The position numbers and the translations under genes were made by a program. A DNA stretch of 64,000 nt from Barthelona sp. PCE (lineage: Eukaryota): positions 186,001 through 250,000 of the forward strand of contig JAUFOR010000003.1 in the NCBI GenBank assembly GCA_040285745.1, given 5' to 3'. Under the pieces are notes generated by a model. It ran no database searches. It was not told where the DNA came from and worked only from the letters and a program-made list of their open reading frames with translations. Shown one piece after another: positions 16 to 54,867 of the stretch; position 1 is the first letter of the stretch; each line of letters begins with the position of its first letter.

Positions 16-3000
16 TTAATCTGTTACAGTAATGAGATCGTCCACAACCATCAATATGACGTCTTCGAGGTATTCGTCCACAAATTTATCCAAAAACTTT
101 TCCAACTCAACAGTCACCTGTCGATCAACAACTCTCTCAACCATACCACCCAATTGCTGTATGTTAGCTGTAAAGTCAGACTCTGTGGCGGCCAGTATGC
201 TTGCATCGAAGCTCTCAGATGCAAATTCAAAGAAAAAACAAACCTTTCTAAACAAAACTATACACTGCTCTAAATTCGTGTAAGAAGACAACATAGAGTT
301 AAGATTAAACCGAAGCATATCATACACGGGGTACAAACTGTTAATTTTCTTTGATTTACGAGCAAAAACATTGAAAACAAACGTAGCTTGCTTCTCTAAC
401 TGGTTCCAATAATTCTTAAGCAATCCAAATTTGATATCAATAGTTGCGGAGGGAAGCCCAAACGTTGCATTTTCGTTAGATATGAAGCTGAATGGGATCT
501 GTAACACACGGAACAAGAGCGGGAAGAAGCACTCGGATTTCAAGAAGGTTTGGAAAAATATTGCGTTTCTGGAATCACTTGAAGTCTCTCTCTCTTCTTC
601 TCCACTGTGTCCGACCTCCATCGTCTCGCAGCTGATGTGGCAGCAGTCGACAAACCAGTCCAATATCTGCAAATCCGATGCAAACAGCACTGATCGAACG
701 AAAATACGGAAATCATCCAAATCGAGCATGACCTTTGACGGGTTGATCGTTTCGACGTCGTTCTTGAAGTACTCGCTGCTCAGAACCCAGTTGCGTTTCA
801 ACGTACGAAGACAGTCAGTCTTTGCTTTGCTGTAACACTTCATGAGAAAGTGCAGCATTGAGTCCATCTTGATCTTTGACACGTCGATACCCCCGAAGCT
901 GACCGTTGTCCCGGTGTATAAACGTCGAAGGCTGTTAATATAACTACTAACAATGTCCATTGGTTGCGAAATGAAAAGCTGCTGCACAACGGACTCTGCC
1001 TTCAGTGAACTGACATATGTCTTCTTTTTATCCATGAACGATCCGGAATCGGAGTCTATTATGAAGAATGCGTTAAGATAAAACAAAACAAAGTCGCAAG
1101 AAAAAGTACCGTCCAAGATCGAGAGGAAATCTCTGTTAAAGAAGACCTTTGACTTCGTCAGACCAAGGAAATATGCAGCAAGCGCGGTCTCGGAGGCGCG
1201 AATCGTCTCGTACGAGGTAAAAAAAATGGAATAAATAATTTTCGAAATTGAACGGATGCCAAGCATCATATTATCAGATCTAAATACGTCTGCACGTTCG
1301 AAAAGACCGTTAAACGGGATATAGAAAAACACAATCTGGCGCATAAGTTTGACTGTCAGATCCGTGACGACTTCGTCCTCAAAAGGAGTAATAGTCTTGA
1401 GATTAACATTTGTTGCAAATAATGATAGCAACTCTGCTTTTCTTTTACGCGATAGGCGAACGTCTTCGTTACGCTTATGCTCCTCCAAGGCAGTCTGACG
1501 CGCTTCTTCGACTCGCATCAACGTTTGGTGGAACTCTTCTCGAAGATCGTTATCAGTCAACCACTTTCTCTTCTCTTTCTCACGAAGTCGCTGATCCTCT
1601 CCTACAGCTCCCTCGTCGACTTCAACCTCTCCATCACTCAATTCCTCACTGGAGGTCTCCAACTCCTCCCATTCATAATTGTCGTCTGGGATAATGTCTA
1701 ACTCAGGTACATGTTCAAGTTCCGACAGTGACTGGTGCTCGTACATGCTCCTAGCCGAATTTTGTGTATGATGAGACCTGGCACTGAGTCGCGCATCCTC
1801 TTCTTGCAACTCCTTAACCGAGCGCATGCCGCGGACACTCGCCGGAATCTCCTCTTCTTCTTCTTCTTCGCGGAAGCTCAGAACAGATGTGTTTGATGCC
1901 GTTCTCTTGATATTACCCTTGCTCTTTCGGCTGACTAACTGAGGCTTACTCTTCGAAGTCTCTCTATCAATCTCCTTCATAGGGTCGTCCTCGTCGTCAA
2001 AGTGCGGCATTTCCATATTGAGGGATGCAAACGTCTTCATCTGGTATGGCACCTCGTCACCAACCGCAACCTCAACATATGTCTTAGTGTACGATCGACT
2101 CATTTGAATATCCTCTGTTTTCGGCGATATGGTCTGCCTCAGCTCCTTGTTTTCGGCCTTGAGGCGGTCTATCTGACCGGAAAGTCGTACAATCGTGTCG
2201 TTCTGGCTTGTAATATCAAACTCCAGATCTTTGACCTTTTTCTTATACTTCTTAATCATGTCCACCATGTCTGACGGCTTGGAGCTCTCGACGGTCTCCT
2301 GCACGCTATGCAGAGCCGCCTTAAGCTCATCATACAACGTGTCATCCTTGGTAACTGCCTTCGTGAGCTCCCCTTCGAGGTTGGTAAACTTATGTGCGTA
2401 GTGGCGCCTACTCTTCTCAAAAAACCGCACGCACACCGACATAAGCTCGGTGAGGCTGTTACTGATGACGTTAACGAGATCACCGCATCTGAACAAATTA
2501 TTATCCTCGCTTTCCTGCAGTGTTCTGCAAAGCTCAGCAGCAATCATTCTGTAAATGGCACCCTCTTCGTCGAACCTGCTCAAAAGATCCTTGTCCGTCT
2601 CCGGGTGGTACTCAACCCCGAGACACGTCTCGCTCGCAGGCCTTGTCTTGGCCGCTCTCATCTGTCCCATACAATTAACTAAATATTGAACATCTTCAAT
2701 TGAGGGTGATAACTTCGGCCACATAACCTCCTTCCACTGCTTGCGAACATCGTCGAAATATACATGATGCTCTTTGCTATCAACAAACTGTGGGATTGTG
2801 CGCTCGACATAATAAGCACGTGGAATGATGGTAAATTGCTTAGATTTGGTTCTGGGTTTAGCCTTTGCAGACAGCTGAAAGTAGGAAGGCGTCTGTGGGG
2901 GCAGCACTGGCTCTAGAGGGCTTTCTGTCAACGGTGGTGTTTCAGAACTATCCACTGAAAATGGTGTGTGTGGAACAGGTATATCGTTCAGTGGAGACAG

Positions 3001-3411
3001 TGCTGTGTCCACATCTGCGAGACCACTGATGTTTGTCGGCAGCCCATTCTCATCAAACGTGTCCTCAACACATTCTACACTCCTTCTGCTATCTGATGTT
3101 CTTGCTGACATCATAGCGAGTACATTGTCAAGGTCGTTGGCAAACATAGAATCAAACTCGTCCAATGGGAGAGCTAACGGCTTTGTATTGGGCACATTCT
3201 GAGAATAAAAACCCATCGATGTGTGTGCGCGACCAGGTCTCATTCTATCCATATTCGGGGTGTCTATCTTTGTGAAACGGTTGTATGCGCTTTCTTTTTG
3301 CTTTTGGGGTGAAAATTGTGGTTTTTGTCTCCTAATTGGTTTAGGTGAGTTAATTTTCACAACTTTCTTCTTTATATTCACAGGCCCCTCCTTCCCTGAC
3401 CAAAATGACAT
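16..3411 (-). CDS. Large coiled-coil protein with a putative axonemal dynein light chain (p28/AXDND1-like) domain
   Basis: 1131-aa ORF; segment PSIEDVQYL...EEGAIYRMIAAELCRTL...CGDLVNVI resembles the Ax_dynein_light pattern, followed by coiled coil, acidic linker and helical C-terminus. Confidence 0.4.
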   Translation of the reverse strand: MSFWSGKEGPVNIKKKVVKINSPKPIRRQKPQFSPQKQKESAYNRFTKIDTPNMDRMRPGRAHTSMGFYSQNVPNTKPLALPLDEFDSMFANDLDNVLAMMSARTSDSRRSVECVEDTFDENGLPTNISGLADVDTALSPLNDIPVPHTPFSVDSSETPPLTESPLEPVLPPQTPSYFQLSAKAKPRTKSKQFTIIPRAYYVERTIPQFVDSKEHHVYFDDVRKQWKEVMWPKLSPSIEDVQYLVNCMGQMRAAKTRPASETCLGVEYHPETDKDLLSRFDEEGAIYRMIAAELCRTLQESEDNNLFRCGDLVNVISNSLTELMSVCVRFFEKSRRHYAHKFTNLEGELTKAVTKDDTLYDELKAALHSVQETVESSKPSDMVDMIKKYKKKVKDLEFDITSQNDTIVRLSGQIDRLKAENKELRQTISPKTEDIQMSRSYTKTYVEVAVGDEVPYQMKTFASLNMEMPHFDDEDDPMKEIDRETSKSKPQLVSRKSKGNIKRTASNTSVLSFREEEEEEEIPASVRGMRSVKELQEEDARLSARSHHTQNSARSMYEHQSLSELEHVPELDIIPDDNYEWEELETSSEELSDGEVEVDEGAVGEDQRLREKEKRKWLTDNDLREEFHQTLMRVEEARQTALEEHKRNEDVRLSRKRKAELLSLFATNVNLKTITPFEDEVVTDLTVKLMRQIVFFYIPFNGLFERADVFRSDNMMLGIRSISKIIYSIFFTSYETIRASETALAAYFLGLTKSKVFFNRDFLSILDGTFSCDFVLFYLNAFFIIDSDSGSFMDKKKTYVSSLKAESVVQQLFISQPMDIVSSYINSLRRLYTGTTVSFGGIDVSKIKMDSMLHFLMKCYSKAKTDCLRTLKRNWVLSSEYFKNDVETINPSKVMLDLDDFRIFVRSVLFASDLQILDWFVDCCHISCETMEVGHSGEEERETSSDSRNAIFFQTFLKSECFFPLLFRVLQIPFSFISNENATFGLPSATIDIKFGLLKNYWNQLEKQATFVFNVFARKSKKINSLYPVYDMLRFNLNSMLSSYTNLEQCIVLFRKVCFFFEFASESFDASILAATESDFTANIQQLGGMVERVVDRQVTVELEKFLDKFVDEYLEDVILMVVDDLITVTD

Positions 3412-9345: not shown

Positions 9346-10344
9346 ATGCAAAATTGGGCCTACGACACGGACAAGGCAAGCAAATTTGAGGGGCAGGATC
9401 TTTTGAATTTGGACCTTGCAGAAATCTGCAATGACACCGAATTTCCAAAGCATATACTCGAAATACCAAGCGACATTGTAATGCAGGTGATGGAGTTCCC
9501 ACAAGACTTTGGAATTCCCACTAACGAACGTGGAAAATCAGCAAAACCTCGGGTCAATGGTACCTACGTACTCAAGCTCACAACAGGGACATCTACACAC
9601 AACGGACTTCTCTTTGTGTGCAATAGTTTCAAGAGATTGCAGCCTGGATGCAAGATCCTCCTTAAAAGAGGAACTCCTATTGCAAATGGGTTCTTTCTGA
9701 TGAAAGAACCTGAGAATTTTGAGGTTCTGGGCGGGCGTGTTGAGACACTGTGCATGGCGTATGATATGAAGATTCAGAAAAAGAAGATTTGGTACTCTGA
9801 TCGAAAGGATGATGAAAGGCCTGTTTTTCAATCTGTTTTACAGCAATTAGGTCGGACAAAGAAGTCCACTGGTGTTCTAACCGGTAAATTAAAGAGCAAA
9901 AATAAGAATAATCGTGACACTAGCAAAAACAAAAATGAAACTCAAAATCATGATGAAACTAGCAAGAGGAGGAAAGGAAAGAATAAGAATAAGAGGAAAA
10001 ACAACGACCCGAAAATGGAAATAGAACCACAAAATGAAGATCAGAAAGTGGAAAAAGCTAAAAATAAGAGAAATAGTGGAAATAAGAGGAGAAATAATAA
10101 CAACAAGAGGAAAAACAATAACCAACAGCAGATATCTGAACAGAATGAGCAGACACAACAACAAAATAGGCCTAATAAGAAGCCTAATAAGTCTAAAAAT
10201 GGAAAAGGTAACAAGAAGAATCAGAACAGACCAAAGCAAGACCCAAAATCTGAACAGAGTGAACAAAACGTCAAGTCTAATGCAAATAAGAATCGTCGAA
10301 ACCGTCGTAGAAACAACAAAAAAAGCAAATCTGAGACTCATTAA
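9346..10344 (+). CDS. RMI1-N/TDRD3-type OB-fold protein with K/N/R-rich low-complexity tail
   Basis: VLKLTTG...PGCKILL...IANGFFLM..ENFEVLGGRVETL resembles the RMI1/TDRD3 OB fold; C-terminal half basic, Asn/Lys-rich. Confidence 0.65.
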   Translation: MQNWAYDTDKASKFEGQDLLNLDLAEICNDTEFPKHILEIPSDIVMQVMEFPQDFGIPTNERGKSAKPRVNGTYVLKLTTGTSTHNGLLFVCNSFKRLQPGCKILLKRGTPIANGFFLMKEPENFEVLGGRVETLCMAYDMKIQKKKIWYSDRKDDERPVFQSVLQQLGRTKKSTGVLTGKLKSKNKNNRDTSKNKNETQNHDETSKRRKGKNKNKRKNNDPKMEIEPQNEDQKVEKAKNKRNSGNKRRNNNNKRKNNNQQQISEQNEQTQQQNRPNKKPNKSKNGKGNKKNQNRPKQDPKSEQSEQNVKSNANKNRRNRRRNNKKSKSETH

Positions 10345-10683: not shown

Positions 10684-12666
10684 ATGGATTTAATTGATTC
10701 TGAATTAAATTATATTATCCTGGAAGAACTGGGAAGAGGTAATCAAGGAGTAGTCTACAGAGCTGTTTCCAAAGATAAACCAGAGGGAGAAAATGAACCT
10801 CAAAAAGAAGTTGCTCTCAAAATTATCAATCTAAAGCGTGGTGAAGTCCCTAAATCTGTTGAGAACGAGATTGAGGCACTTTCCCAGCTCAACCATCCTA
10901 ATATCCTCAAGTTTTATCAGGCTTATGATTTGTCACATAAGGAAAACGGAACAGTTGTTCTGGCTTTTGAGTACGTCCCCAATGCGGCGCCTGTCATAGA
11001 CCATCACCTGAGCAACTTCTGCCTGTCTCCTGATAACATCAGATTGATCCTTCGTGACCTTATCAGCGCACTGTATCACTCTCATCAAGTTGGTTTTGCC
11101 CACCGTGATATTAAACCTGACAACATTCTTTATTCTACAGACGGAATTCTCAAGCTCATTGACTTTGGGCTGGCTGCTGAGACCGAAAAAATGGTGAATA
11201 ACATGGTTGGAGCTGCTGGTTCCCCTGCGTACATGTCTCCAGATCAGATCACCTACATCCGCGACAAGAGAAGAGGCCGTAAACCGCGTGCTCTAAACCC
11301 TGAGAAACTGGATATTTGGAGCGTCGGTGTCCTCATGTACACTATGTTATTCGGGAAATCTCCCTTCACACTCAACGACGTGTCATCTCTCTTTAGCGAA
11401 ATCCTAACAAAGCCGATTGACATCCCTAACAGCTTCTTCAACCACCCTGCCTGCAATCTACTCATTGGAATGCTGCGCCGTTCTTCTGAGAACCGTTTTG
11501 GTTTCGAGGAAATTTTGAATCACCCATGGCTCACCAACAACGGCACTGAACCTATTGACCAGTACGACCTCCTGGAGCTACCGGCCACTGCCAAGATCAT
11601 GCAGGCATGTACAGACATTGTTCTGATGACGCGTAACTCGTATGATTTGAAGTTCCCCAATTTCTCTTTGGACATGGATCACCGCATCGATTTCCACTCT
11701 GTATTTAACGTTGTTAACATCTGTCGCAATCTTCTAGACAATGTGCACACCAGCTTTTCTGCAATATCCACTGAAAAACTGAATTTTGAAGCTTTTTCCG
11801 GAAGATTCTTCCCACAAACAACTGCAATTTTACAGACTGTCCTTGATGCTCTTAACAACTCGCGTAAGGCTGCCTTGGCTGCTCTTTCTAAGGCAGAAAC
11901 GTTTATTACTCACTTCCAGGCAGAGTCAGAAGCACTGCTAACAGCTGTAGCGGATGATATCAGAGATACAGAGCACTCAGAAATCATTAAGATGTCGCAG
12001 GTTAAGCAGCTTTTAGATGATGATATTCTCCCAATTCTGGGTAAACGGGTTGATGAAATCATTGTAAGATCGAAAGTACCCACCAACTGGGTTTTCTTTG
12101 AGGCAAACCAGCTGTACAATAACATGGCAGATGTTGCCGTCGCAATTACCAATAACAGTTTGCTTACCGGATCCAAGACCGCCCTTATTACAGACCCAGA
12201 CGAGTTCAAGGCATATGAAGGCGCTGCGCATTACTTGCGAATGGATTTGGGCAGAAGAGCCCCACTAGATTTTGTTGTTATGCCACCCGTGATGCAGGAT
12301 GTCATGCGTGATTCTATTTGCAGCGCACGAAAATTTAGCACACCGGGTAGCACGATTGGTGTGAAAATGTTCAACTCCAAGCGCAATCTCCACTTGATCA
12401 TTGAGGATCTAGGTCAAGGATTTTCTTCCAATGAAGAATTTCAACGTATCATGCAAGGAGCTGGTGCAGGTGTTACATTTGCACGTTCCTTTGGTGGATC
12501 ATTTGGTTTCAAGAAGGCAGTTTTAACAACCCAGTTTTTTAATGGTACCTTTGAAGTCAAATCTGCTAAAGAAATTGGTTCACAGATTCATATATCTCTC
12601 CCTATGCCTCCGTCGGGTATCGAGAAGGTCAACAGCTATGTTAGAAGATGCAGATCTATGACTTAG
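10684..12666 (+). CDS. Ser/Thr protein kinase (CAMK-like) fused to histidine-kinase-like HATPase_c module
   Basis: GRGNQG, VALK, HRDIKPDN, DFG, GSPAYMSPD, DIWSVG; C-terminal QDVMRDSICSARKF / IEDLGQGF / GGSFGF / GSQIHISLP = GHKL N, G1, G2, G3 boxes. Confidence 0.85.
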   Translation: MDLIDSELNYIILEELGRGNQGVVYRAVSKDKPEGENEPQKEVALKIINLKRGEVPKSVENEIEALSQLNHPNILKFYQAYDLSHKENGTVVLAFEYVPNAAPVIDHHLSNFCLSPDNIRLILRDLISALYHSHQVGFAHRDIKPDNILYSTDGILKLIDFGLAAETEKMVNNMVGAAGSPAYMSPDQITYIRDKRRGRKPRALNPEKLDIWSVGVLMYTMLFGKSPFTLNDVSSLFSEILTKPIDIPNSFFNHPACNLLIGMLRRSSENRFGFEEILNHPWLTNNGTEPIDQYDLLELPATAKIMQACTDIVLMTRNSYDLKFPNFSLDMDHRIDFHSVFNVVNICRNLLDNVHTSFSAISTEKLNFEAFSGRFFPQTTAILQTVLDALNNSRKAALAALSKAETFITHFQAESEALLTAVADDIRDTEHSEIIKMSQVKQLLDDDILPILGKRVDEIIVRSKVPTNWVFFEANQLYNNMADVAVAITNNSLLTGSKTALITDPDEFKAYEGAAHYLRMDLGRRAPLDFVVMPPVMQDVMRDSICSARKFSTPGSTIGVKMFNSKRNLHLIIEDLGQGFSSNEEFQRIMQGAGAGVTFARSFGGSFGFKKAVLTTQFFNGTFEVKSAKEIGSQIHISLPMPPSGIEKVNSYVRRCRSMT

Positions 12667-12919
12667 TTGGTGGTGCTCTGGCTATGGGACCTGGTAGCAG
12701 GTAATACATAGAACTTTTTTTTTCCAGGCCAATATCCTTGAGAGTGACGCTGTTGTCGCCCAAGTATATCTTATTGTAAACAAATCGCACGTAATGCAAG
12801 GGAATGCATTCCTGCTCAGAAAAAATGTTCTTCAATTCTCCAACTGTCTTTTCATCATCAACAACCATGTGTATTATCTTCCCTGTGACCACTTTAATTG
12901 TTATGTTAATCAAAACCAT
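12656..12919 (-). CDS. Ubiquitin-like protein without C-terminal diglycine
   Basis: ITIKVVTGK...TVGELK...ECIP...RFVY...L.D...TLKDIGL beta-grasp pattern. Confidence 0.7.
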   Translation of the reverse strand: MVLINITIKVVTGKIIHMVVDDEKTVGELKNIFSEQECIPLHYVRFVYNKIYLGDNSVTLKDIGLEKKSSMYYLLPGPIARAPPTKS

Positions 12920-21121: not shown

Positions 21122-23512
21122 TTATTGCCCTGTAAGCAGCATTGGATATAGAGTAAACAAGTAATCAGATCGCAAATCCGCGATGTTTGACGCCATCATG
21201 AAGCATTTATCTGTGAGCTGAGTATCTTTGTGTTTTTCCAGCAGTGCCAGCAATTCTGAGCTTACAGAAAAACCCTTATCCAGTTCGTTTAGAGTCTCAT
21301 TCGCTCTATGGTACAGCTTCACAACAACTTGCCCGGTGACATGCAGTAGCCTGCCATACACATATGTTCTTATCAACCGCTCCAGCTCCAACGTTGGGGC
21401 ATTCAAGCTGTCGCACTCAATATGAGTGATTAGCACCTGATCCGCTGAGAGGCTGAAAGCCATCATTTCCTCGCACTTCAGCGTAAAGAATAGGCGCAGC
21501 AGTGCAAGCTTAACACAGAACGTATCGTCATCATACGAATGTGGTATTCTCACAATAGCGAAATCTCGAAGGCGGTTGCTTGGTGCGAACCCCTTGTTGA
21601 CGTTATTTAGCCTCATAATGAGAAGATTCGAGTACCTCTTTGTCTCACTCACGGTCAGGGCAAGCCTCTCACCAAGACCAGAGAAAATGCGGCCAACAAG
21701 ATACCCGATGAAACTGACAAAGAGTAGCGGAACGGGGCCTGCTCTGAACTCGGGCGCCATCAAGGGCATGGCCCAGCCAGTGACAAGCGCTATGTCCTGC
21801 ATTTCTAAGCATGTGGTGAAGGCGAACCATAGTATCGCAAGACGGACTTCTACTCGGACTTCACACTGGGACAGAACAACAAGGATGGTGGAGAAGCACA
21901 GCGGGACAACAGACACAAAGAAACCCTTGAAAAATCGGCTCTTCAACAAAGGAAGTGAGTGGTAATTGCAAACGCTCGGAAATATTGTCAATGCAAAGAA
22001 AAAAAAGAAGAGAACCCGTTGAAACACAGAGAAATGGACCATGCAGAAGGGAAGACAGAACAAAAACCGAAATGTAATGACCATAATTTGCACAAATATT
22101 ATATGCCTCTTTTTCTTAATGATTCTAGCAAGATAAAACCCAGCAACGTCCATATCAAAGTCAGAAGAATCTTCTCCACGACGCATGGGATTGTGCGAGT
22201 CTTGGCTACTCTTTCGCTTGAGGAGGTCAAAGACAACATGGTCAAGATAGTCCCTTATTGGCAACGATAGCTTGCGCTGGAGTACCTTGAACGTGCTTTT
22301 GTTGAACTCCCTGAACTGTAAACAAGATACATGCTTAGAAATGTTGGTTACAGAGAATAATTCTTCATGATCACAGAAGTTGGAGAAGTAAGCAGATTCG
22401 AAATAAACTCCATTATCCAATTCACTGTACTCATTTCTGCGTACCGGTACCATCTGTATCACACCGTCGTTGTAAGTGATGATATCGGAGCAGTACAGCA
22501 TGATGCTACACTTCACATCGTTGTTTGGCATGGAAGCAAACACTGCGGAGAAATATTGCATCAATGCGACAAAAACATCCACCTCTCGGGCCATATCTGC
22601 TTGAACTGTGCAAGATAGATTGCTAAACGAGAGCTTTTGCTCAGAGCAGGTTATAATTCTTTCTGAACAGATACTTGGCATCGCGAAGAACCCCCGCTGA
22701 ACACGTAGAATGAATATATTCATGCTAAAAAAGTCGAAAAAACTCATCAGAAACTTAACGAAGAACTGTGTTGCTCTATCACTTTTAAAACGCAGCAGCG
22801 CGACTGGCGCGTCTCTTATACGGTAGAACATGCCCACAGTGTCCTGTAGCAATATGTCAGACATCATTCTGAGCTCTGTATCAGAACATCGAAGAGATAC
22901 AGTGCTTGACGCAACAACATCCTCAATAACAGTTTTGTTTTGTATTTTTGTTCTTTCTGCAAAAAAGCTAAGGATTTCGTCCTCACAACTACGCTGTTTG
23001 AAGGATTTGAAGCTCTTCATGCATGCACGACATTTTTTCAAAAGTTCGGAAATACGAAACAACATGTAAAGGCGATACGTATGCTCTATAACGAATGCTA
23101 TGGGCAATGCAACAGTGTCCATCCGGTGCAACACAAAATAGAACACTGTACCTAGATAACTGAACAGATTGCACCACGCCATCCCATACGGCATCAGTAG
23201 ATGATGGGATCCGACAATGGACATGCGTATGAGGGGGTAGCAGCAGTTAAATCTCACATATGATGTAATAACGTAACCACGAATAAAGGAAACTAGCCCT
23301 TGAGCAAATATACTCTTGTGAAGGTAGTACATTGAAAAAAATGTCAAAAACACAAGAAAATGTACAGATGCTGCATAGTACTCGCCCTCTTTAGAAACAA
23401 AAATGAGCCCAAGGTAATAAATTACAGTTGCCGGAATGTAAACGTGGTTTGGGAAGATTTCGATGAATTCAATGAAGTGATCAGGAGCATTTTCCCCCAT
23501 ATCCCCAAGCAT
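21122..23512 (-). CDS. Multi-pass membrane protein with TM-bundle/soluble/TM-bundle/soluble topology
   Basis: Two hydrophobic clusters (about aa 30-160 and 480-625), each followed by a soluble region; first ATG at 23512. Confidence 0.55.
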   Translation of the reverse strand: MLGDMGENAPDHFIEFIEIFPNHVYIPATVIYYLGLIFVSKEGEYYAASVHFLVFLTFFSMYYLHKSIFAQGLVSFIRGYVITSYVRFNCCYPLIRMSIVGSHHLLMPYGMAWCNLFSYLGTVFYFVLHRMDTVALPIAFVIEHTYRLYMLFRISELLKKCRACMKSFKSFKQRSCEDEILSFFAERTKIQNKTVIEDVVASSTVSLRCSDTELRMMSDILLQDTVGMFYRIRDAPVALLRFKSDRATQFFVKFLMSFFDFFSMNIFILRVQRGFFAMPSICSERIITCSEQKLSFSNLSCTVQADMAREVDVFVALMQYFSAVFASMPNNDVKCSIMLYCSDIITYNDGVIQMVPVRRNEYSELDNGVYFESAYFSNFCDHEELFSVTNISKHVSCLQFREFNKSTFKVLQRKLSLPIRDYLDHVVFDLLKRKSSQDSHNPMRRGEDSSDFDMDVAGFYLARIIKKKRHIIFVQIMVITFRFLFCLPFCMVHFSVFQRVLFFFFFALTIFPSVCNYHSLPLLKSRFFKGFFVSVVPLCFSTILVVLSQCEVRVEVRLAILWFAFTTCLEMQDIALVTGWAMPLMAPEFRAGPVPLLFVSFIGYLVGRIFSGLGERLALTVSETKRYSNLLIMRLNNVNKGFAPSNRLRDFAIVRIPHSYDDDTFCVKLALLRLFFTLKCEEMMAFSLSADQVLITHIECDSLNAPTLELERLIRTYVYGRLLHVTGQVVVKLYHRANETLNELDKGFSVSSELLALLEKHKDTQLTDKCFMMASNIADLRSDYLFTLYPMLLTGQ

Positions 23513-23765
23513 TGTTATTGCGAAAAGGGTATTGTAAGTGAGAACGTTTCTCAACAGTTATATTATTTTATATTCCTTCACATATCGAGTTTATCCATAT
23601 ATGTTTTGAAAATTCAGTTGTTTATCCACAAAATTTCTGGATTGTAATTAAAATTGCATTTTTCATCGTTGTTTATTTTTATACTCCTTTCTCACCAAGT
23701 TTTTTGAAACTTTTTTGACTGTTGCTTACTCGACGTTTATACTTTGCATACTTATCTGGTAAAAA

Positions 23766-24479: not shown

Positions 24480-27400
24480 CTAGAGATTGGTACTCCCGTT
24501 GACTGTGGTCATTTTTTGAACAATTGCAGGTCGATCGTGTATTATGCGCAGCACAAATACGCGATTGGAACTGACAGACTGGAATAAGAATAATGAAAGT
24601 TCAGCTGAGTCAAGTAATTTCCACCTGGAAAGCTTTTTGATTCTGTCAACAAGATTCTCAGCCACAATGTTGCGTATGCTAATTTTTGAAACAACAAACA
24701 GAGTGGCTGTCTTCACATATAAGTGCGTATCCAAAATCGATAAAAGGGAATTTATCCCAAAAATATCGTAATTGGCATGTTTTTCAACATCTTTGAAATA
24801 TAAATCATACGGAACATAAGGACTCTTATAGCCAAATGCCTCATAAGTGAGTGATAACCATTTGCACTTCATTGAGTTGCAAAAAAGTTGAACTTCTGGT
24901 ATGATATAAAGCTTGTTGATTTCAGTGATTGGCCTCAACTCAGTGCTCCCTCTGTATTCATACTGCAGGAGTGTCTTTGTCTCATTCCGAAGGGATACAA
25001 TTTTTATGTCCCTATCAAATTTCTTCTTAAGAACAAACTTCCATATACAAAGAGACGTAGCTGAAAACAGAATTAAACACCCAAAGCTTATTAAAGGCAG
25101 CCATTCAAAGTAATAGTGTGTTTGTACAGAACCCAAAATTAGTGCTATTACCAGGTAAGGTTTCTTTAAAGAGTGATTTAAAAAGCAAGACACAATTTCA
25201 CTAGCTATTGACATAAAAAGGCCAACCTCCAGAAGAGGCATATTAAAGATAGAAGTAGAAATACTGGGAATACCAAGGAAATACAGAAAAATGAAATCGT
25301 ATCTTGGAAAATGCCATGAAATAATCCATGCAGCAATTAAAACTATTGAAAATACCTTAACAAAGTCATTAACAAATGCATAAATCAACCATCCAACATA
25401 AACAGCCAAAGAAATCCAAAAAATGAGCGAAAATCTGTGTAAATTCTTTTTTCTTTTAAGGTATATTAAAAGCATTGCTGTAATAGCGATGGAAATGCGT
25501 ACCCATCTCCAATTTCCGGTGTTTTCAACAAATGATGTATCATGATCAAGACACCAGTGTAAAAAAGAAAAGGATAACAATAAAAACAAAACTAGAGCTG
25601 CCCATTGCGTGTAATCAAAACACTTCTTCCACCAAACTGTTGCCTTAGGCGCCTCGAACGAGTGCAATGTGGTTGTAGTTTCACCATTGCTGGCCTCCAA
25701 CGATACTGCACCCAAAGCACTGTTGTTTAGGAAGATGCAAAAGCAGCTTTCATCTTGTTCACTGTGATGATCTCTGATACGCTGTATTGCGCCTTCTGTG
25801 TCTCGGCAATCAGAGTAAACTACAACATCAGAGTTGATGTTTGGATTGTAAAAAGTTTTTAGGGGCGAGATTTTAAGTTCTTGCATTTTTTTCAAGACCT
25901 TTGAACGCTCAGGATGTGACATTGAGTGAAGAAGTTCTTTAAACTTGCTCATTTCAAATATATATCTAAACTCTTCAATATTAAAATGAGTGAAGAGCTT
26001 AAAAAAATTTTTCTTCATATCATCACATTGTTCTAATACACGATTTAATGATATTCTCCTATTTCCATTACTTGATCTAATAATACTGACAAATATTCTA
26101 ATATCGTTTGATAAATCTAGTGCAATGTCGCAAAATTTCCTAAATTCCATTCCAAACGCATTCAATTGTTTTTTATGAAAGTAGGTGTGATAATGATGAT
26201 ATATTTCTCGGTCAAGACACACGCTTCTAAAACAATTTTCTTTAACAAACTTCAAAGCAGCCTCCTTCTGGGCCTCTCCTTCATCCACTGCGTATCTCAA
26301 AACATCTAGTGTATAATAAGAACTGTTGATAGTATGTTTGCATTCATGGATCATATATTCAAAAAACAATGGTATCAACTTATTCTCACAAATAGCGTCT
26401 AAAACATAGCTACTCGCCTTCACAATGCTCCACACCATGTCAACAGGTGGAAGATCAACACTATTAGAATACTTTTCAAGTATGCAAAAGACTACTGTTC
26501 TATCACAATTTTCAAAATTAAACAGTTCAGGCTGGATATGCGGTATAAAGTTAAGTGTGTTAAAGTCCCCCCAGCCATCACTGTTTTCATATTTAGTAAC
26601 GAAAAGATCTCTGAAAAAACTATTTCTGTGTGTTTGGTAATGTATATTAAAAAAGTCTTTCAACATTACTATTTCATTTTCTTGAAGGAGATACACAGAA
26701 AACAATCTGAAAAGCCTGGGATCAATGAGTCGGAAATTAAATTGTTTCTTATAATTGCATTCAACAATACTCTTGCAAAAGTTAACAACATCCTTTGCTT
26801 CCAAATCACCCCGATCAAACATAGCATTAAAGAGATAAATATTTACCACTCTTTCGATGCTGCTACAAATTGGGTTATAGTCAGTAATTTCTTCCTCAAT
26901 CGAAATACAGGCGTTAAAAGAATGATAATTCAAATTTACCCATAAATCGGTGATGAAATCACTGTTGAGACAAAGCTTCATTGTACGATAAATATATTTA
27001 TGTTTAACAATCTGTTCTACCATATGTCGATCAGCGCATCTCAGAAAACCTGGAAGGTCAGCTTGCAGAAGTTCATTTTCATTTAACGTGTTATCAAAGA
27101 ATAAACTAATGATGGAAAAACCTTTGCTAAAAAAACACAGATCTTTAAAGATTTTTGACTTCACCTCTTCATTTTCATTTCTAACATGCAGCAATAACGT
27201 TTTGCAACTGTCTATGTTAATATCACGATAAGAGTTGGGAGATAAGTAATCAAAACATCGATCATAAATGTGTAACTGTTCTTGAGCGCAACACCAACCA
27301 ACAAACCCTGATAATCCATGAAAAAGGTGCTTCAAAGCATCTTCAGCACATGAATCAAGGAAGATATCCAAATGCTCTTGTACAAATTCATGAGCGTCTG

Positions 27401-27782
27401 TTCTTGTACAACAACTGTGAATCATAAAAGCGATTACATTCATAATATTACCATCTGGTCGAAGTGAATTCAGTAACTTCACTGCACTAATCTGATCGAA
27501 TCTATTCATTTTAACGCCTTTTTCACATATATCAAAAAAATAATTCTTTAAATGAAAAGCACTGTTTTGAAGAGTTCTAATTCCACAATATATAGCAAAA
27601 AAACATTTTGAGTAAGTTCTATGGTAGTTAATTTCATATGGTGACCCTTCATTTGAAAAAGTGATTGCTAGTATTGATCCATTCGCTTCGCAAGAAGTAA
27701 CAGTGCCCAATCTGTCCCTGATTGCCTCATAATGAGGCTCATAACGATTCTGATATTGTCTTATAAATTCAATTTGATCCAT
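24480..27782 (-). CDS. Large lineage-specific protein: helical N-terminal region plus C-terminal multi-TM block
   Basis: 1100-aa AT-rich ORF with several TM segments at about aa 725-920; no family recognised. Confidence 0.6.
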   Translation of the reverse strand: MDQIEFIRQYQNRYEPHYEAIRDRLGTVTSCEANGSILAITFSNEGSPYEINYHRTYSKCFFAIYCGIRTLQNSAFHLKNYFFDICEKGVKMNRFDQISAVKLLNSLRPDGNIMNVIAFMIHSCCTRTDAHEFVQEHLDIFLDSCAEDALKHLFHGLSGFVGWCCAQEQLHIYDRCFDYLSPNSYRDINIDSCKTLLLHVRNENEEVKSKIFKDLCFFSKGFSIISLFFDNTLNENELLQADLPGFLRCADRHMVEQIVKHKYIYRTMKLCLNSDFITDLWVNLNYHSFNACISIEEEITDYNPICSSIERVVNIYLFNAMFDRGDLEAKDVVNFCKSIVECNYKKQFNFRLIDPRLFRLFSVYLLQENEIVMLKDFFNIHYQTHRNSFFRDLFVTKYENSDGWGDFNTLNFIPHIQPELFNFENCDRTVVFCILEKYSNSVDLPPVDMVWSIVKASSYVLDAICENKLIPLFFEYMIHECKHTINSSYYTLDVLRYAVDEGEAQKEAALKFVKENCFRSVCLDREIYHHYHTYFHKKQLNAFGMEFRKFCDIALDLSNDIRIFVSIIRSSNGNRRISLNRVLEQCDDMKKNFFKLFTHFNIEEFRYIFEMSKFKELLHSMSHPERSKVLKKMQELKISPLKTFYNPNINSDVVVYSDCRDTEGAIQRIRDHHSEQDESCFCIFLNNSALGAVSLEASNGETTTTLHSFEAPKATVWWKKCFDYTQWAALVLFLLLSFSFLHWCLDHDTSFVENTGNWRWVRISIAITAMLLIYLKRKKNLHRFSLIFWISLAVYVGWLIYAFVNDFVKVFSIVLIAAWIISWHFPRYDFIFLYFLGIPSISTSIFNMPLLEVGLFMSIASEIVSCFLNHSLKKPYLVIALILGSVQTHYYFEWLPLISFGCLILFSATSLCIWKFVLKKKFDRDIKIVSLRNETKTLLQYEYRGSTELRPITEINKLYIIPEVQLFCNSMKCKWLSLTYEAFGYKSPYVPYDLYFKDVEKHANYDIFGINSLLSILDTHLYVKTATLFVVSKISIRNIVAENLVDRIKKLSRWKLLDSAELSLFLFQSVSSNRVFVLRIIHDRPAIVQKMTTVNGSTNL

Positions 27783-39851: not shown

Positions 39852-42800
39852 CTACTTTCTCTTTGAACCTCTCGTTGATTTACCGCCTTTTCCAGGCTTC
39901 TTTGCACCACTCTCACTGGGATAACCATGTGATTCGTCGAACTCGTTCTTGAAAACAGATTTGAGCAGAAACGTTAGAATTCCAGGCTTGTCTTGGATAG
40001 CACCCTCCTCAACAAGCAATGTCTTGAGCTCCACACATAGTTCCGGCGTGGGTTCCATCTGTAACGTCTCGAAATCCTCAGCTGTGATACCAAAAAGCTT
40101 GAATATAACTTCTTTGAACATTTCAACATTGACAGTGGGTGTTTCACCATCAATAACGAGCTCGTCGCTGTGCGTATACAGATATCTTAGTGACTTCGCG
40201 GTGATAGCGCAGTCATAAACGTACCAGAGCTGATGCTTGATCAGAAGTGTGTAATGCAATTTTTGCTTCTCGTAATCTTGATACGTGGTCACCACACCAA
40301 CACTGCGGTCGGCAAACGAGGTGCTCAGTACAGAGATACAGTCGCTATATGAATCACTCTTCATCAAACTCTTATGTAGGTACTCAATACGGTGATCATA
40401 TATATTGCTGTTAACGGGCATGGATATGAAGAACTCTCGCAGCATGTGCGCATCGTGCATAGCCTTGATGTCATCCAGCCACTTGAGTGGCACATCGAAC
40501 GACAACGTACCCACATCAGAATGCAAAGCAGAGAAAAACTTCCGCTTAGCCTCCGACACCAGTGCGCGGAACGCAACAGCTCTGATTTTCGTCTCCTTGT
40601 CGTCAAGCATACATGCGATTTGGACATAGAGAACGACATACTTGTAAAAATCGTTTGACAATAGTGAAACCGAGTCAACAGCGTACTGTATGCCTTGTTG
40701 GATAGCGTGGTGTGCTTGCTGCAGAGCCTCAGGAGTACCATTTGACACAAGACTAAGGCTAAGACAGAAATACACCTGTGCGCGGTGGGCGTCGGGCATT
40801 GAGTTTGTTGTCAGCATAGCACTGTATGTTGGCGTCACGGTGAAGTCGAATGGAAGGTTATACTGCAGGAGGAGTTCCTGAATACGGAGCATAAGCGGTA
40901 AGAATACGCAGTTTCCGTTTTCGAATTGGTGGTAGGCAGACTGACTCTGACCGAAACTCGTACCCAGCTTTCTGGCAGCATTGGTGCACAAGCCAAAGAG
41001 CTCCTTGAGGTTATTGCTGATCTGCAACGTATCCGGATCACTACTTGCCATAATAACCCTAGCATGAGTGCTAACACACTCAACACAGGTATGCACACAA
41101 ATCTCATTGTTTTCAAGACACAACAGCTTGTCGATATCATCAGATGATATGTCGAAACCGCGGTGAAGTTGGTACTGTACCTTGCTAGAAAGAGCTAACA
41201 GTTTTAACTCAGTGAAAGAGGCAGCTTCACAATCGGCGACAAAAACGTCATAATACTCAAGGTACTGGTCGTGGTTGACAGCCCTCATTGACTCAAGCAA
41301 AGCGTACTTAACATTGAGCACAAGTGTTTTGAAAGGGCGCCAACGACCGATGTACTTCAGATCACTCTTCCAAGTTTCGTCAATATCAACGTACCCTTCA
41401 TTGACAACTGATGAGAGGAGACTACCTTCTACTATCACACGGCTTGATGAAGGTGTGACCTTCTTCTTGGCCTTTGCTTTGTCAGGCTTCGCCTTGTCAA
41501 CCTTAACTGGTTCTGTAGCTTCTGTAGGGTACATTATCTGGCCTAGTAGCTCGATACATTCTGCATACATGTGTGTCCTCATAGCATAATGTACCACCAA
41601 TGAAAGCTTGTACAGCTGGACGCCTCCAAATATGTCTTCCTTTTCTTCTTCCGCTTCTTCCACCTTTGATTCGTCTTCTTCCGCCTCTTCCGATGGCATG
41701 CTGTAGTAGGGGAGCCCGCGAAGGAGTGAAAATACATCATCTGACATATCCGTACAGTTAAGAGCGAGAGCAAGTCGCACACAAAGTTCAGCGTGAACAT
41801 AGCGGCTCAAAACACTGAAGAACGGTGTTCCACCGAATGACATGCCGAATACGGTCTTTAGGTCGATATTGTGAAGAGACTCACCAGCCTTAATGCCGAT
41901 ATCGACGTTTCCAAGTCCAGCAAGTGCAACAGCCGCATGGGAGAGGTAACCCAGGCGCAGCAAACACTGGATATTGATGAGAGAAGCATACAAGATCTCG
42001 TTGGGACTGAGCACAACCTGTCTTGCAAACCAAACAGCGAATTGCGAAACACTCAGAGCACGGGGTGTGTCCGGAGTGAAGAGCATGTATCTGTCGTTGT
42101 TTAAGAGAGCCAGCGCGGTGAGAGACTCGGTGACGAGCCATGGTGAAGGAATGATGTTACTTGGGAAAAGATTCAGTGTCATAATTTCCTGAGGGAACAA
42201 CACATCACCGGTTAGCTCAGTTAGCATGTGTGCTGTTGCGCTTTGAGGGAACGTCATAGAAGCGATAGGGGTTATAAAGTTGAAGACGACTCCAAAAGAA
42301 AGGCAGGATATACCAATCAGCTCATGTGCGCTATCCGAACGCATAGCAATGCGAGCAAGACTGCATACAACAAACCATAGCATCCATAGCTCCTCCTCCA
42401 ACTGTTGAAGGGTGGCCATGGCAAGTCTCTTCTTTAACTTTTTGAAGGAGATTCCGCTGTAGTTAACTGTCGAATTGATACGCATGAAGTAGAAGTCTAG
42501 AAGATATCGCAACAGTTCATACTCTAGTGTATCGTCGCCGAATTGCGTCATCCACTTGTGGCAGAAGACGGAATAGTCGTTGCAAAGCGTAAGGCGCTGT
42601 AACGAGTCATTGGCCTCACTAACTTCCATTAGAAGCCCATCATAGAGCTGTTTGAGGCGCAGGATCTCTTCTGAATCTAAAACATCATTGCTCAGGATAC
42701 GCGCCTGCATGATCTGCGCTTCTAGACCAGTCGAGCACTCCTCCAACAATGCTTTCATCTCGTTTGCTAAGGCCATCGACTGCTGGAATCGCTCGTCATC

Positions 42801-47030: not shown

Positions 47031-47099
47031 CTTAACAAGCAAAAAAGGGGTGCAAAGGGTAAAACATCTTGTTAATCGTAGTTTAACTCATTTCAAAGC

Positions 47100-54755: not shown

Positions 54756-54867
54756 CTTTGACCATAACTTTTGCCCTGAATTAATTGGTATAAGATATAT
54801 AATCGAAAACACATACGCTGGTTTTACTTTTTAAACAAACACATATAAACATAATATTAGTGCACAT

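What the first reader, a model, noticed from the sequence alone, without database searches (positions are those of the whole stretch)
10684..12666. Eukaryotic Ser/Thr kinase fused to a bacterial-type histidine-kinase-like module with a degenerate ATP-binding N-box
Seen: aa 1-285 form an intact ePK (VALK, HRDIKPDN, DFG). From about aa 335 there is a helical region starting DFHSVFNVVN (His at nt 11695-11697, H-box-like), then a GHKL fold: MPPVMQDVMRDSICSARKF (N-box, conserved Asn replaced by Ser), IEDLGQG (G1), GGSFGF.KA (G2), GSQIHISLP (G3). From memory, the run MPPV.QDV.RD...ARK and the upstream RV.E...R...P..WV.F / AI..NS segments resemble a family of stand-alone bacterial ATP-binding/sensor-kinase proteins. 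Known STK-HK fusions (cyanobacterial HstK, fungal group X hybrid kinases) carry long intervening ATPase/GAF regions, and the fungal ones a receiver domain; none is visible here. Inference: a laterally acquired two-component module grafted onto a eukaryotic kinase as a pseudo-enzymatic sensor or phospho-acceptor, i.e. a possible undescribed His-to-Ser/Thr signalling hybrid.
Basis: partly seen in the sequence, partly recalled or inferred. Interest (0 to 1): 0.8.

Follow-up and report, generated by a model that had tools for sequence, protein, structure and literature searches.

The report
Ser/Thr kinase fused to histidine-kinase module
A protist gene joins an ordinary eukaryotic Ser/Thr protein kinase to a histidine-kinase-like module of bacterial type whose ATP-binding site has decayed in this copy; the same fusion occurs in a few related anaerobic flagellates and I found no description of it in print.

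Summary
Window 10684-12666 (+) is one 660-aa ORF. Residues 11-283 are a protein kinase domain (E 2.4e-49) with all catalytic motifs. Residues ~329-645 are a helical bundle plus a histidine-kinase-type ATP-binding (CA) domain.

The C-terminal module belongs to a large family of ~300-aa, mostly bacterial stand-alone proteins. His338 is invariant in 118 of 118 aligned members. The N-box Asn is Ser547 here, and Asn in the other 149 of 150 family sequences.

No Pfam phospho-acceptor domain covers the His-bearing bundle.

The same kinase+module fusion is present in Barthelona sp. PCE, Barthelona PAP020 (transcripts), two Skoliomonas strains and Dysnectes. Stand-alone forms occur in Blattamonas and Paratrimastix. 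All nine eukaryotic sequences form one group in the tree.

Best reading: a bacterial histidine-kinase module was acquired early in metamonads and fused once to a CaMKK-like kinase. This copy is the most degenerate paralogue or orthologue: an active Ser/Thr kinase carrying a pseudo-histidine-kinase that keeps its acceptor His.

Function, partners and expression are untested. It is a new variant of a known kind, of moderate to high interest.

The parts
10684..12666 (+). Whole ORF, 660 aa plus stop: Ser/Thr kinase, flexible linker, histidine-kinase-like module
   Evidence: It aligns colinearly over its full length with P0002 (38% over 648 columns) and P0003 (34% over 653).
10714..11532 (+). Protein kinase domain, aa 11-283, CaMKK/CAMK-like
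   Evidence: Pfam Pkinase E 2.4e-49. Best solved relatives are CaMKK2 6cmj_A (E 8.9e-34) and MELK (6.3e-33). Full-length AF2 pLDDT is mostly above 90 here.
10819..10821 (+). Lys46 of VALK (ATP-anchoring lysine)
   Evidence: sequence
11101..11124 (+). HRDIKPDN catalytic loop, aa 140-147
   Evidence: sequence
11161..11169 (+). DFG motif, aa 160-162
   Evidence: sequence
11560..11616 (+). Low-confidence linker, aa 293-311, between kinase and module
   Evidence: pLDDT below 50 at 293-307 and 309-311. Full-length pTM is 0.60 against 0.88 for the module alone.
11668..12075 (+). His-bearing helical domain, aa ~329-464, predicted as an intramolecular four-helix bundle; not covered by any Pfam model
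   Evidence: AF2 helices. VIA-align match to the single-chain four-helix bundle 1yo7_B: Z 10.7, model residues 34-163. No H-domain family found.
11695..11697 (+). His338, the invariant His of the family motif h-H-S-x-x-N-x-x-N; candidate phospho-acceptor
   Evidence: Invariant in 118 of 118 rows of A1; Ser339 and Asn342 are at least 90% conserved. HS..N is present in 133 of 150 hits.
12040..12090 (+). Junction motif GKRVDEIIVRSKVPTNW (family R..E...R...P..W), end of last bundle helix into first CA strand
   Evidence: R455 in 125 of 128, E458 in 124 of 129, R462 in 118 of 129, W469 in 128 of 131
12079..12618 (+). CA (GHKL ATP-binding) domain, aa ~466-645
   Evidence: VIA-align Z 12-14.4, rmsd 2.6-3.0 A over about 145 residues to histidine-kinase CA domains. 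Foldseek E down to 2.6e-9. HATPase_c 19.7-22.1 bits.
12280..12336 (+). N-box region MPPVMQDVMRDSICSARKF. It holds Ser547 (nt 12322-12324, AGC) where the family has the Mg-ATP-binding Asn, and Ser544 where the family has Leu.
   Evidence: Asn in 149 of 150, Leu in 140 of 150; DNA read
12400..12420 (+). G1 box IEDLGQG. D575, G577 and G579 are kept.
   Evidence: each residue present in 150 of 150 in the family
12493..12519 (+). G2 box GGSFGFKKA, degenerate: G606S, L609F, T610K
   Evidence: Gly in 148 of 150, Leu in 145 of 150, Thr in 141 of 150
12577..12603 (+). G3 region GSQIHISLP, with T633S
   Evidence: G632 in 147 of 150, Thr in 142 of 150

Best explanation
The gene encodes a two-kinase protein of a metamonad-specific family.

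Architecture. The N-terminus is a CaMKK/CAMK-like Ser/Thr kinase with a complete catalytic apparatus. A flexible linker of about 20 residues connects it to a histidine-kinase-like module. That module is a helical bundle carrying an invariant His on its first helix (His338), followed by a histidine-kinase-type ATP-binding domain.

Origin. The module descends from a widespread bacterial family of ~300-aa, sensor-less cytoplasmic proteins. It entered an early metamonad by lateral transfer. It stays unfused in Preaxostyla. It was fused once to the Ser/Thr kinase in the lineage leading to barthelonids, skoliomonads and Dysnectes.

This copy. Several residues have been replaced: the Asn that holds Mg-ATP (Ser547), part of the G2 glycine loop, and other nucleotide-pocket positions. 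The His motif and the bundle/CA junction motifs are intact.

Inferred mechanism. The Ser/Thr kinase is the only working catalyst. The C-terminal module is a pseudo-histidine-kinase that acts as a regulatory or docking domain. It may be a His phospho-acceptor charged in trans by an ATP-competent paralogue, much as ChpT-type phosphotransferases keep a kinase-like fold without binding ATP.

Shown: architecture, family membership, conservation pattern, fold, distribution. Inferred: loss of ATP binding, any phosphotransfer, and the direction of signalling between the two domains.
For: - ORF and kinase motifs.
- Family size: 297 hits at E<=1e-3 for aa 300-660.
- Same fusion elsewhere: Pkinase+HATPase_c in P0002 (Barthelona sp. 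PCE), P0003 (Barthelona PAP020 transcriptome, four Trinity isoforms of 663-667 aa), P0026 (Dysnectes), P0053 and P0096 (the two Skoliomonas strains).
- Colinear full-length alignments among the fused proteins.
- Stand-alone forms of 371-391 aa in Blattamonas and Paratrimastix.
- His338 invariant in 118 of 118.
- N-box Asn in 149 of 150, missing only here, and kept in all 8 other eukaryotic members.
- This protein departs at 14 of 41 columns that are at least 90% conserved in the 136 other rows. Other eukaryotic members depart at 5-10; the bacterial median is 1 and the maximum 10.
- AF2 of aa 300-660: pLDDT 89.8, pTM 0.88.
- CA domain Z 12-14.4 to histidine kinases. Whole-module matches to HK853 (Z 14.0, 220 aligned) and ChpT 4fpp_A (Z 11.5, 198 aligned, rmsd 3.6 A).
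- Trees: the nine eukaryotic rows are one group (SH-aLRT 98 in LG+G4 with 145 rows; 99 in LG+C20 PMSF with 54 rows). The six fused rows are one side of a branch.
- At least 333 bacterial loci across many phyla.
- Receiver domains adjacent or fused at 6 of 38 full-flank bacterial loci. REC-HPt-module fusions exist: P0059, P0065, P0131.
- The gene lies on a contig with eukaryotic genes: proteasome ATPase, Sec1, SDA1, a ubiquitin-like ORF.
Against: - HATPase_c is below Pfam's gathering score for this copy (19.7 or 22.1 bits against 26.4).
- Loss of ATP binding is read from sequence only. G1 (DxGxG), G604, G605, G608, K611 and G621 are kept, so a residual or altered nucleotide site is possible.
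- Thirteen of the 14 deviations lie in the CA domain. But most of the 41 conserved columns lie there too, so the contrast with the bundle is not statistically strong.
- No receiver or HPt domain is in the window, and the genome could not be searched. A phosphorelay partner is therefore unknown.
- Whether an ATP-competent paralogue sits in the same genome is not shown. P0002 may be an orthologue from another barthelonid.
- The trees are unrooted quick searches. The careful search did not finish and the donor lineage is unresolved.
- Only 30 of the 150 hits were looked up by name, so some unlabelled rows may be eukaryotic.
- Full-length AF2 gives no confident contact between the two domains (pTM 0.60).
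Confidence: 0.7

Rival explanations
1. The module is still a working histidine kinase. Ser547 and the altered G2 loop still allow Mg-ATP binding, the protein autophosphorylates His338, and it is a true dual His and Ser/Thr kinase.
For: The His motif, G1 box, most glycines of the lid and the overall fold are kept. Its branch length in the tree equals that of its nearest relatives: 0.68 against 0.68 and 0.78. So the module is not decaying freely.
Against: The Asn is kept in 149 of 150 family members and in every other eukaryotic member. From general knowledge of GHKL ATPases (recalled, not tested here), this Asn coordinates the Mg ion of Mg-ATP, and its replacement abolishes kinase activity in model histidine kinases. 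There are 14 of 41 deviations at conserved columns, the highest of all 145 rows.
Confidence: 0.15
2. The family is not a histidine kinase at all. The GHKL domain phosphorylates Ser/Thr on other proteins or merely hydrolyses ATP, as in PDK/BCKDK or anti-sigma-factor kinases, and the invariant His is structural or catalytic rather than a phospho-acceptor.
For: The helical domain is predicted as an intramolecular four-helix bundle in front of a GHKL domain. That is the layout of BCKDK/PDK, which appear among the fold matches (Foldseek E about 7e-8; CA part Z 12.2). No HisKA-type Pfam domain is found. Most bacterial members have no receiver next to them: 28 of 38 loci have none within about 3.5 kb.
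Against: By sequence the CA domain is closest to WalK/VicK/PhoR-type histidine kinases (profile search E 2.6e-23). The BCKDK/PDK matches are no better than those of many histidine kinases. Receiver domains are fused or adjacent in a subset. The H-x3-N spacing recalls H-boxes of other non-HisKA histidine kinases (recalled, not tested).
Confidence: 0.1
3. It is an artefact: an assembly chimera, a read-through of two genes, or bacterial contamination joined to a eukaryotic kinase.
For: No reads could be laid on the gene, because no run was listed.
Against: The frame is uninterrupted for 660 codons. Five other proteins from five other organisms have the same architecture, among them transcriptome contigs, and they align colinearly across the junction. 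The flanking genes are eukaryotic.
Confidence: 0.02

Closest known systems
Uncharacterised bacterial family of ~300-aa proteins annotated 'sensor histidine kinase' or 'ATP-binding protein' (e.g. Desulfonatronovibrio, Planctomycetota and Verrucomicrobiota MAG proteins)
   Same: The whole module aa ~329-645 aligns. The shared features are the invariant His motif, the R..E...R...P..W and A...NS motifs, the N-box RDLxANARKY, G1 and G2. This is the family the module belongs to.
   Different: The bacterial proteins stand alone or follow REC or REC-HPt, never a protein kinase domain among the 150 hits examined. They keep the N-box Asn. I found no curated Pfam or NCBIfam model specific to them and no paper about them, though I ran no search aimed at them.
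Classical two-component histidine kinases (HisKA + HATPase_c; WalK/VicK, PhoR, HK853)
   Same: The CA domain matches in fold and sequence. A conserved His sits on a helix upstream of the CA domain.
   Different: There is no HisKA match. The His and the N-box are about 190 residues apart. The helical region is predicted as a four-helix bundle within one chain rather than a two-helix hairpin that dimerises. There is no sensor domain. This copy lacks the N-box Asn.
Cyanobacterial HstK-type and fungal group X kinases (Ser/Thr kinase domain plus histidine kinase in one protein)
   Same: An N-terminal Ser/Thr kinase(-related) domain and a C-terminal histidine-kinase region are in one polypeptide. 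Sources: passages of PMC2176072 citing Phalip et al. 2001, and passages of PMC6324907.
   Different: Per those passages, those proteins carry GAF or other sensor domains, and the fungal ones are hybrid with a receiver. Here the two parts are joined by about 45 residues, with no GAF, no HisKA and no receiver. The module has a different, separately acquired origin.
ChpT-type histidine phosphotransferases (PDB 4fpp)
   Same: A helical His-bearing domain is followed by a kinase-like CA fold. VIA-align gives Z 11.5, 198 residues aligned, rmsd 3.6 A over model residues 30-342. It is a functional analogy for a module that keeps the His but not ATP binding.
   Different: No sequence relationship was detected. 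That ChpT does not bind ATP is recalled, not tested here. ChpT is not fused to a protein kinase.
Mitochondrial PDK/BCKDK protein kinases
   Same: They have a four-helix bundle followed by a GHKL domain in one chain, and they appear among the fold matches.
   Different: The match is no better than to ordinary histidine kinases, and only the CA part aligns well (Z 12.2, 142-158 residues). There are no shared family motifs.

Membership tests
Eukaryotic protein kinase (Pfam PF00069) | Profile match above the gathering score | tested here: met
   168.6 bits against a cut-off of 31.7, aa 11-283
Eukaryotic protein kinase (Pfam PF00069) | Catalytic residues: Gly-rich loop, VAIK Lys, HRD Asp, catalytic-loop Asn, DFG Asp | tested here: met
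   GRGNQG 17-22, K46, HRDIKPDN 140-147, DFG 160-162. APE reads SPD (aa 185-187), a conservative variant.
GHKL / HATPase_c (PF02518) | Profile match above the gathering score | tested here: not met
   19.7 bits for the full protein and 22.1 bits for aa 300-660, against 26.4. Relatives pass: P0002 scores 51.8 bits, and 118 of 118 rows of A1 match at E<=0.1.
GHKL / HATPase_c (PF02518) | Bergerat ATP-binding fold | tested here: met
   AF2 pLDDT 89.8. Z 12-14.4, rmsd 2.6-3.0 A to solved CA domains.
GHKL / HATPase_c (PF02518) | N-box Asn that binds Mg-ATP | tested here: not met
   Ser547. The family has Asn in 149 of 150.
GHKL / HATPase_c (PF02518) | G1 (DxGxG) and G2 (GxGxG) boxes | tested here: inconclusive
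   G1 is intact (D575, G577, G579). G2 reads GGSFGF, with G606S, L609F and T610K.
The ~300-aa bacterial histidine-kinase-like family | Alignment over the whole module with the family motifs (HSxxN, R..E...R...P..W, A...NS, RDLxANARKY, GGGFGLTKA) | tested here: met
   phmmer E 1e-24 to 1e-10 over up to 314 residues. 27 of 41 conserved columns are kept, including all those in the helical domain except Y516H.
Two-component sensor histidine kinase (HisKA-class) | HisKA or another curated phospho-acceptor domain (HisKA_2, HisKA_3, HWE_HK, His_kinase, Hpt) | tested here: not met
   None appears among the 25 most frequent families in 118 members; unlisted families match at most one member each. None was found in 10 of 10 N-terminal fragments at E<=10.
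Two-component sensor histidine kinase (HisKA-class) | Conserved His on the helix upstream of the CA domain | tested here: met
   His338 is invariant in 118 of 118. Its phosphorylation is not testable here.
Two-component sensor histidine kinase (HisKA-class) | Homodimeric DHp four-helix bundle | tested here: inconclusive
   AF2 builds a four-helix bundle within one chain. This single-chain model cannot show whether the module also dimerises.
Two-component sensor histidine kinase (HisKA-class) | Cognate receiver domain protein | not testable with these tools
   None in the window and no genome held. In bacteria a receiver is adjacent or fused at 6 of 38 full-flank loci.
HstK-type / fungal group X dual kinases | Ser/Thr kinase domain plus GAF or other sensor domain plus HisKA-HATPase_c (plus receiver in fungi) | tested here: not met
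   Only Pkinase and a sub-threshold HATPase_c were found: no GAF, HisKA or Response_reg.

The most novel reading that the evidence does not exclude
The ~300-aa bacterial proteins are an undescribed class of sensor-less, possibly monomeric histidine kinases. Their phospho-acceptor His sits on an intramolecular four-helix bundle that no curated domain model covers. One such gene entered an early metamonad and was welded to a CaMKK-like kinase. In anaerobic flagellates where no histidine kinase is reported, this created a receiver-less circuit: phospho-His chemistry talks directly to a Ser/Thr kinase. ATP-dead copies such as this one act as phospho-acceptor or decoy partners of ATP-competent ones.
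Probability: 0.3. Interest if true: 0.75.

Novelty: new variant of a known kind. Interest (0 to 1): 0.6.

Why it matters
Proteins that combine Ser/Thr and His kinases are known from cyanobacteria and fungi. This one differs in origin, layout and host.

According to the 2018 eukaryote-wide survey, the Fornicata sampled so far (Giardia, Spironucleus) have no histidine kinases. That survey required two of HisKA, HATPase_c and REC, so it would have missed this family (passages of PMC6324907).

A conserved kinase+module family in barthelonids, skoliomonads and Dysnectes would add a signalling system to these little-studied anaerobes. It would also give a dated example of lateral transfer followed by domain fusion.

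In addition, it draws attention to a large bacterial family whose His-bearing domain has no curated model.

The ATP-dead copy beside ATP-competent relatives offers a natural contrast for asking what the module does for the Ser/Thr kinase.

Tried and rejected
- The word-indexed search of aa 300-660 found only the protein itself (1 hit among 5709 candidates). The full HMMER search was needed.
- The word-indexed 'longer' search with profile A3 (686-2000 aa) returned 108 canonical HisKA-type bacterial kinases through the CA domain. It missed even the known fused members, so it says nothing about how widespread the fusion is.
- The word-indexed search with the kinase domain did not return P0002 or P0003. 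Local phmmer did.
- No whole genome is held for the window. Paralogues, REC and HPt genes could not be counted.
- Sequencing runs: none was listed and no RNA holder was listed.
- Homodimer prediction of the module (two copies): no answer. Score 0.00, controls not run, the alignment was not used and the fold was uncertain in that program.
- ESM Atlas search with aa 325-470: no usable feature hit. The structure rows were unrelated helical proteins.
- phmmer of aa 300-660 against solved structures gave only marginal hits (best E 0.057). NCBIfam gave weak hits far below every cut-off.
- The careful IQ-TREE search (54 rows, LG+C20 PMSF) did not finish in two 300-s runs on one CPU. Only the quick trees are reported.
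- Neighbour clustering at 38 bacterial loci found no conserved partner beyond the subset with receivers. The commonest neighbours were a citrate transporter and an epimerase in 8-9 related loci.
- Literature searches:
  - 'Barthelona' + 'histidine kinase': 0 papers.
  - 'metamonad' + 'histidine kinase' + 'two-component': 2 papers, neither on this family.
  - Five metamonad genera + 'histidine kinase': none of the 20 listed papers holds 'histidine kinase'.
  - 'HATPase_c' + 'Pkinase' + 'eukaryot': 19 papers, 15 listed, none on metamonads by title.
  - The main text of the BaSk genome paper PMC11316075 holds the word 'kinase' 0 times. Its supplements could not be read and may list the gene.
Full report
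**What is in the sequence**

Window 10684-12666 (+) is a single open frame of 660 codons.

Pfam places a protein kinase domain at aa 11-283 (E 2.4e-49, 168.6 bits). The catalytic set is complete: GRGNQG 17-22, Lys46 in VALK, HRDIKPDN 140-147 and DFG 160-162. APE reads SPD.

The nearest solved kinases are CaMKK2 (6cmj_A, E 8.9e-34, aa 9-295) and MELK (E 6.3e-33). The domain is therefore CAMK/CaMKK-like.

The only other Pfam signal is HATPase_c at aa 538-642. It covers profile positions 7-110 of 111 but scores 19.7 bits (E 0.0012), below the gathering score of 26.4. Comparison with solved structures and with NCBIfam gave only marginal histidine-kinase hits for aa 300-660 (best E 0.057 and 8.2e-5). 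The word-indexed protein search found nothing but the protein itself.

**The C-terminal half belongs to a large family**

A full HMMER search of aa 300-660 against 1.84 billion representatives gave 297 proteins at E<=1e-3, 142 at E<=1e-10 and 3 at E<=1e-30.

Of the 150 listed hits, most are 250-350 aa long (131 of the 156 proteins stored at that point). They align from near their N-terminus to their C-terminus with aa ~330-645 of this protein.

In a 118-row alignment, His39 of the fragment (His338 of the protein, nt 11695-11697) is invariant. The next residue (Ser) and the residue four positions on (Asn) are at least 90% conserved. The string HS..N occurs in 133 of 150 hits.

The further family motifs are also present here:
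- R455, E458, R462, P466 and W469
- A487, N491 and S492
- the N-box RDLxANARKY
- G1 (D575, G577, G579)
- a G2 loop, GGGFGLTKA in the family

The recollection was right.

**What is unusual in this copy**

At the N-box the family has Asn in 149 of 150 sequences. The single exception is this protein, with Ser547 (AGC, nt 12322-12324).

Other strongly conserved positions are also changed: L544S, I580F, P581S, N596G, G606S (Gly in 148 of 150), L609F, T610K (Thr in 141 of 150) and T633S.

I counted departures over the 41 columns that are at least 90% conserved among the 136 rows not labelled eukaryotic:
- this protein: 14
- the eight other eukaryotic members: 5 to 10
- the 136 other rows: median 1, maximum 10

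All eight other eukaryotic members keep the N-box Asn. The His motif and the bundle/CA junction motifs are intact in this copy.

Its branch in the tree is no longer than those of its two nearest relatives (0.68 against 0.68 and 0.78). The module is therefore not decaying as a whole.

**Fold**

AlphaFold2 on aa 300-660 with the 118-row alignment gave mean pLDDT 89.8 and pTM 0.88.

Model residues ~166-348 superpose on histidine-kinase CA domains: VIA-align Z 12-14.4, rmsd 2.6-3.0 A, about 145 residues. Foldseek E-values go down to 2.6e-9.

Whole-module matches include HK853 (5uht_A: Z 14.0, 220 aligned, rmsd 5.5 A) and the phosphotransferase ChpT (4fpp_A: Z 11.5, 198 aligned, rmsd 3.6 A). BCKDK and PDK also appear, through the CA part (Z 12.2).

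Model residues 34-163 consist of four long helices. They match single-chain four-helix bundles (1yo7_B, Z 10.7), a score in the range the tool warns is common for helical bundles.

By sequence, a profile of the bacterial members matches solved kinases only from profile position ~135 onward. That is the CA domain, with WalK/VicK-type kinases best at E 2.6e-23.

No Pfam phospho-acceptor family was found:
- HisKA, HisKA_2, HisKA_3, HWE_HK, His_kinase and Hpt are not among the 25 most frequent families in the 118 members. The unlisted families match at most one member each.
- None was found in 10 of 10 N-terminal fragments at E<=10.

The H-x3-N spacing recalls the H-boxes of HWE/HisKA_2 and LytS-type kinases. 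That is my recollection and was not confirmed by any search.

Full-length AlphaFold2 gave mean pLDDT 85.6 and pTM 0.60, with aa 293-307 and 309-311 below pLDDT 50. This means two well-folded halves on a flexible linker, with no confident contact between them.

**Who else has it**

Source names were looked up for 30 of the 150 hits.

Kinase+module proteins (Pfam; local phmmer with the kinase domain):
- P0002: Barthelona sp. PCE, 662 aa
- P0003 and three further Trinity isoforms: Barthelona sp. PAP020 transcriptome, 663-667 aa
- P0026: Dysnectes brevis, 779 aa
- P0053: 'Eukaryota sp. GEM-RC1', 706 aa
- P0096: 'Eukaryota sp. TZLM3-RCL', 728 aa

The last two are the Skoliomonas strains of the BaSk genome paper (passages of PMC11316075).

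The fused proteins align colinearly over their full length. Examples are this protein against P0002 (38% over 648 columns) and against P0096 (25% over 736 columns in one segment).

Unfused eukaryotic members of 371-391 aa come from Blattamonas nauphoetae (two) and Paratrimastix pyriformis.

The named remainder are bacterial MAG or metagenome proteins: Desulfonatronovibrio, Planctomycetota, Verrucomicrobiota, and JGI 'signal transduction histidine kinase'.

They come from Opitutaceae and other Verrucomicrobia, Desulfovibrionales, Spirochaetes, Planctomycetota, Fidelibacterota, Thermosynechococcus, Ectothiorhodospira, Rhabdochromatium and others.

The window itself carries eukaryotic genes: proteasome AAA ATPase, Sec1, aldehyde dehydrogenase, SDA1 and a ubiquitin-like ORF. 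From its nearest relatives I infer a barthelonid-like metamonad.

**Trees**

I built a quick ML tree (LG+G4) of 145 module sequences. It used the 150 hits minus five shorter than 250 aa, with 306 columns.

In that tree the nine eukaryotic rows form one group (SH-aLRT 98). The three Preaxostyla rows form one side of a branch (99) and the six fused rows the other (93). Within the fused rows:
- The Barthelona-type trio, including this protein, group together (98).
- Dysnectes joins the two Skoliomonas rows (88).

A second quick tree used LG+C20+F+G4 (PMSF) on 54 rows. These were the nine eukaryotic rows plus every third other row, with the long-branched P0105 dropped. It gave the same groups: 99 for the nine, 98 for the trio, 83 for the fused six.

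The careful search with bootstraps did not finish.

The trees are unrooted and the sister lineage is unsupported, so no donor is named.

The distribution is hundreds of bacterial species in many phyla against seven metamonad taxa forming one group. This makes transfer from bacteria into an early metamonad, followed by one fusion to a kinase, the most economical history.

**Is the bacterial family a histidine kinase?**

- Three of the listed hits are REC-HPt-module proteins: P0059, P0065 and P0131.
- Among the 38 loci with full 6-kb flanks, a REC-like ORF lies within about 3.5 kb in 10.
- Pfam confirmed a single-domain receiver directly upstream on the same strand in three loci (L059, L062, L068).
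- Pfam confirmed a receiver directly downstream on the opposite strand in one (L034).
- It also confirmed a REC-module fusion in one (L063) and a hybrid HisKA kinase with receivers upstream in one (L018).
- The other loci have no conserved neighbour.
- The ~300-aa proteins have only about 20-40 residues before the His, so they have no sensor domain.

This fits a sensor-less transmitter used in phosphorelays, but it does not prove His phosphorylation.

**How this protein most likely works**

Shown: an intact Ser/Thr kinase; a flexible linker; and a module that keeps the family's His and scaffold motifs but has lost the Mg-ATP Asn and part of the G2 loop.

Inferred:
- The module of this copy no longer binds or uses ATP.
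- The Ser/Thr kinase is the only catalyst.
- The module serves as a regulatory or docking domain.
- The module may be a His acceptor charged in trans by an ATP-competent relative. The analogy is ChpT-type phosphotransferases, whose lack of ATP binding I recall rather than tested.

In the bacterial fusions the N-terminal partner (REC or REC-HPt) occupies the position where input domains usually sit. By analogy, the kinase domain may act on the module rather than the reverse. That is speculation.

Rival readings, with my confidences:
- The module is still an active histidine kinase (0.15).
- The family is a PDK-like Ser kinase or ATPase, and the His is not an acceptor (0.10).
- The fusion is an artefact (0.02).

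**What is known**

The 2018 survey of eukaryotic histidine kinases found none in Giardia or Spironucleus and seven hybrid kinases in Trichomonas. It retained only proteins with two of HisKA, HATPase_c and REC, so it would not have kept this family (passages of PMC6324907).

Ser/Thr+His dual kinases are described in cyanobacteria: HstK (Alr2258), Pkn40 and Pkn41 (passages of PMC2176072). They are also described in fungi as group X, with an S/TK-related domain and GAF (passages of PMC6324907).

I found no paper linking histidine kinases to Barthelona, Skoliomonas, Dysnectes, Carpediemonas, Kipferlia, Paratrimastix or Blattamonas. The main text of the BaSk genome paper does not contain the word 'kinase'. 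Supplements were closed and may list the gene.

**Verdict**

It needs correcting on uniqueness and timing, because this is a lineage-wide family, and on the scope of the degenerate N-box, which is this copy only.

This is a new variant of a known kind, a dual Ser/Thr and His kinase protein. It is built from a bacterial module whose His domain has no curated model. Interest 0.6.

Noticed in passing
window 12656-12919 (-): An 87-aa ORF with a ubiquitin-family domain (PF00240, E 2.4e-8) runs convergent to the kinase gene. It overlaps the kinase gene's last 11 nt, stop codon included.
   Followed up: partly
L001-L080 (bacterial loci); proteins P0006-P0150: The ~300-aa bacterial family is itself unexplained. 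It has an invariant His on a helical domain with no Pfam or specific NCBIfam model and no sensor domain. There are at least 333 loci across many phyla, sometimes next to or fused with single receiver domains or REC-HPt.
   Followed up: partly
window 39852-47042 (-), 47100-49994 (+), 52194-54812 (-), 16-3411 (-), 24480-27782 (-), 21122-23554 (-): Six long uninterrupted ORFs (810-2396 aa) have no Pfam match at E<=0.001. They look like lineage-specific large proteins.
   Followed up: no
window 9346-10344 (+): A 332-aa ORF directly upstream has a long Lys/Asn/Gln-rich low-complexity C-terminal half and no Pfam match.
   Followed up: no
window 1-64000: G+C in 2-kb windows swings between 0.33 and 0.49 along the window. 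Long intron-free ORFs are packed on both strands: 30 ORFs of at least 200 aa, one of which is an open-ended duplicate of another.
   Followed up: no
P0001 / P0002 / P0003: The three Barthelona-type fused proteins are about equally distant from one another (38%, 34% and 37% identity over the full length). The tree leaves them unresolved. Whether they are orthologues from three barthelonid lineages or paralogues could not be decided.
   Followed up: partly
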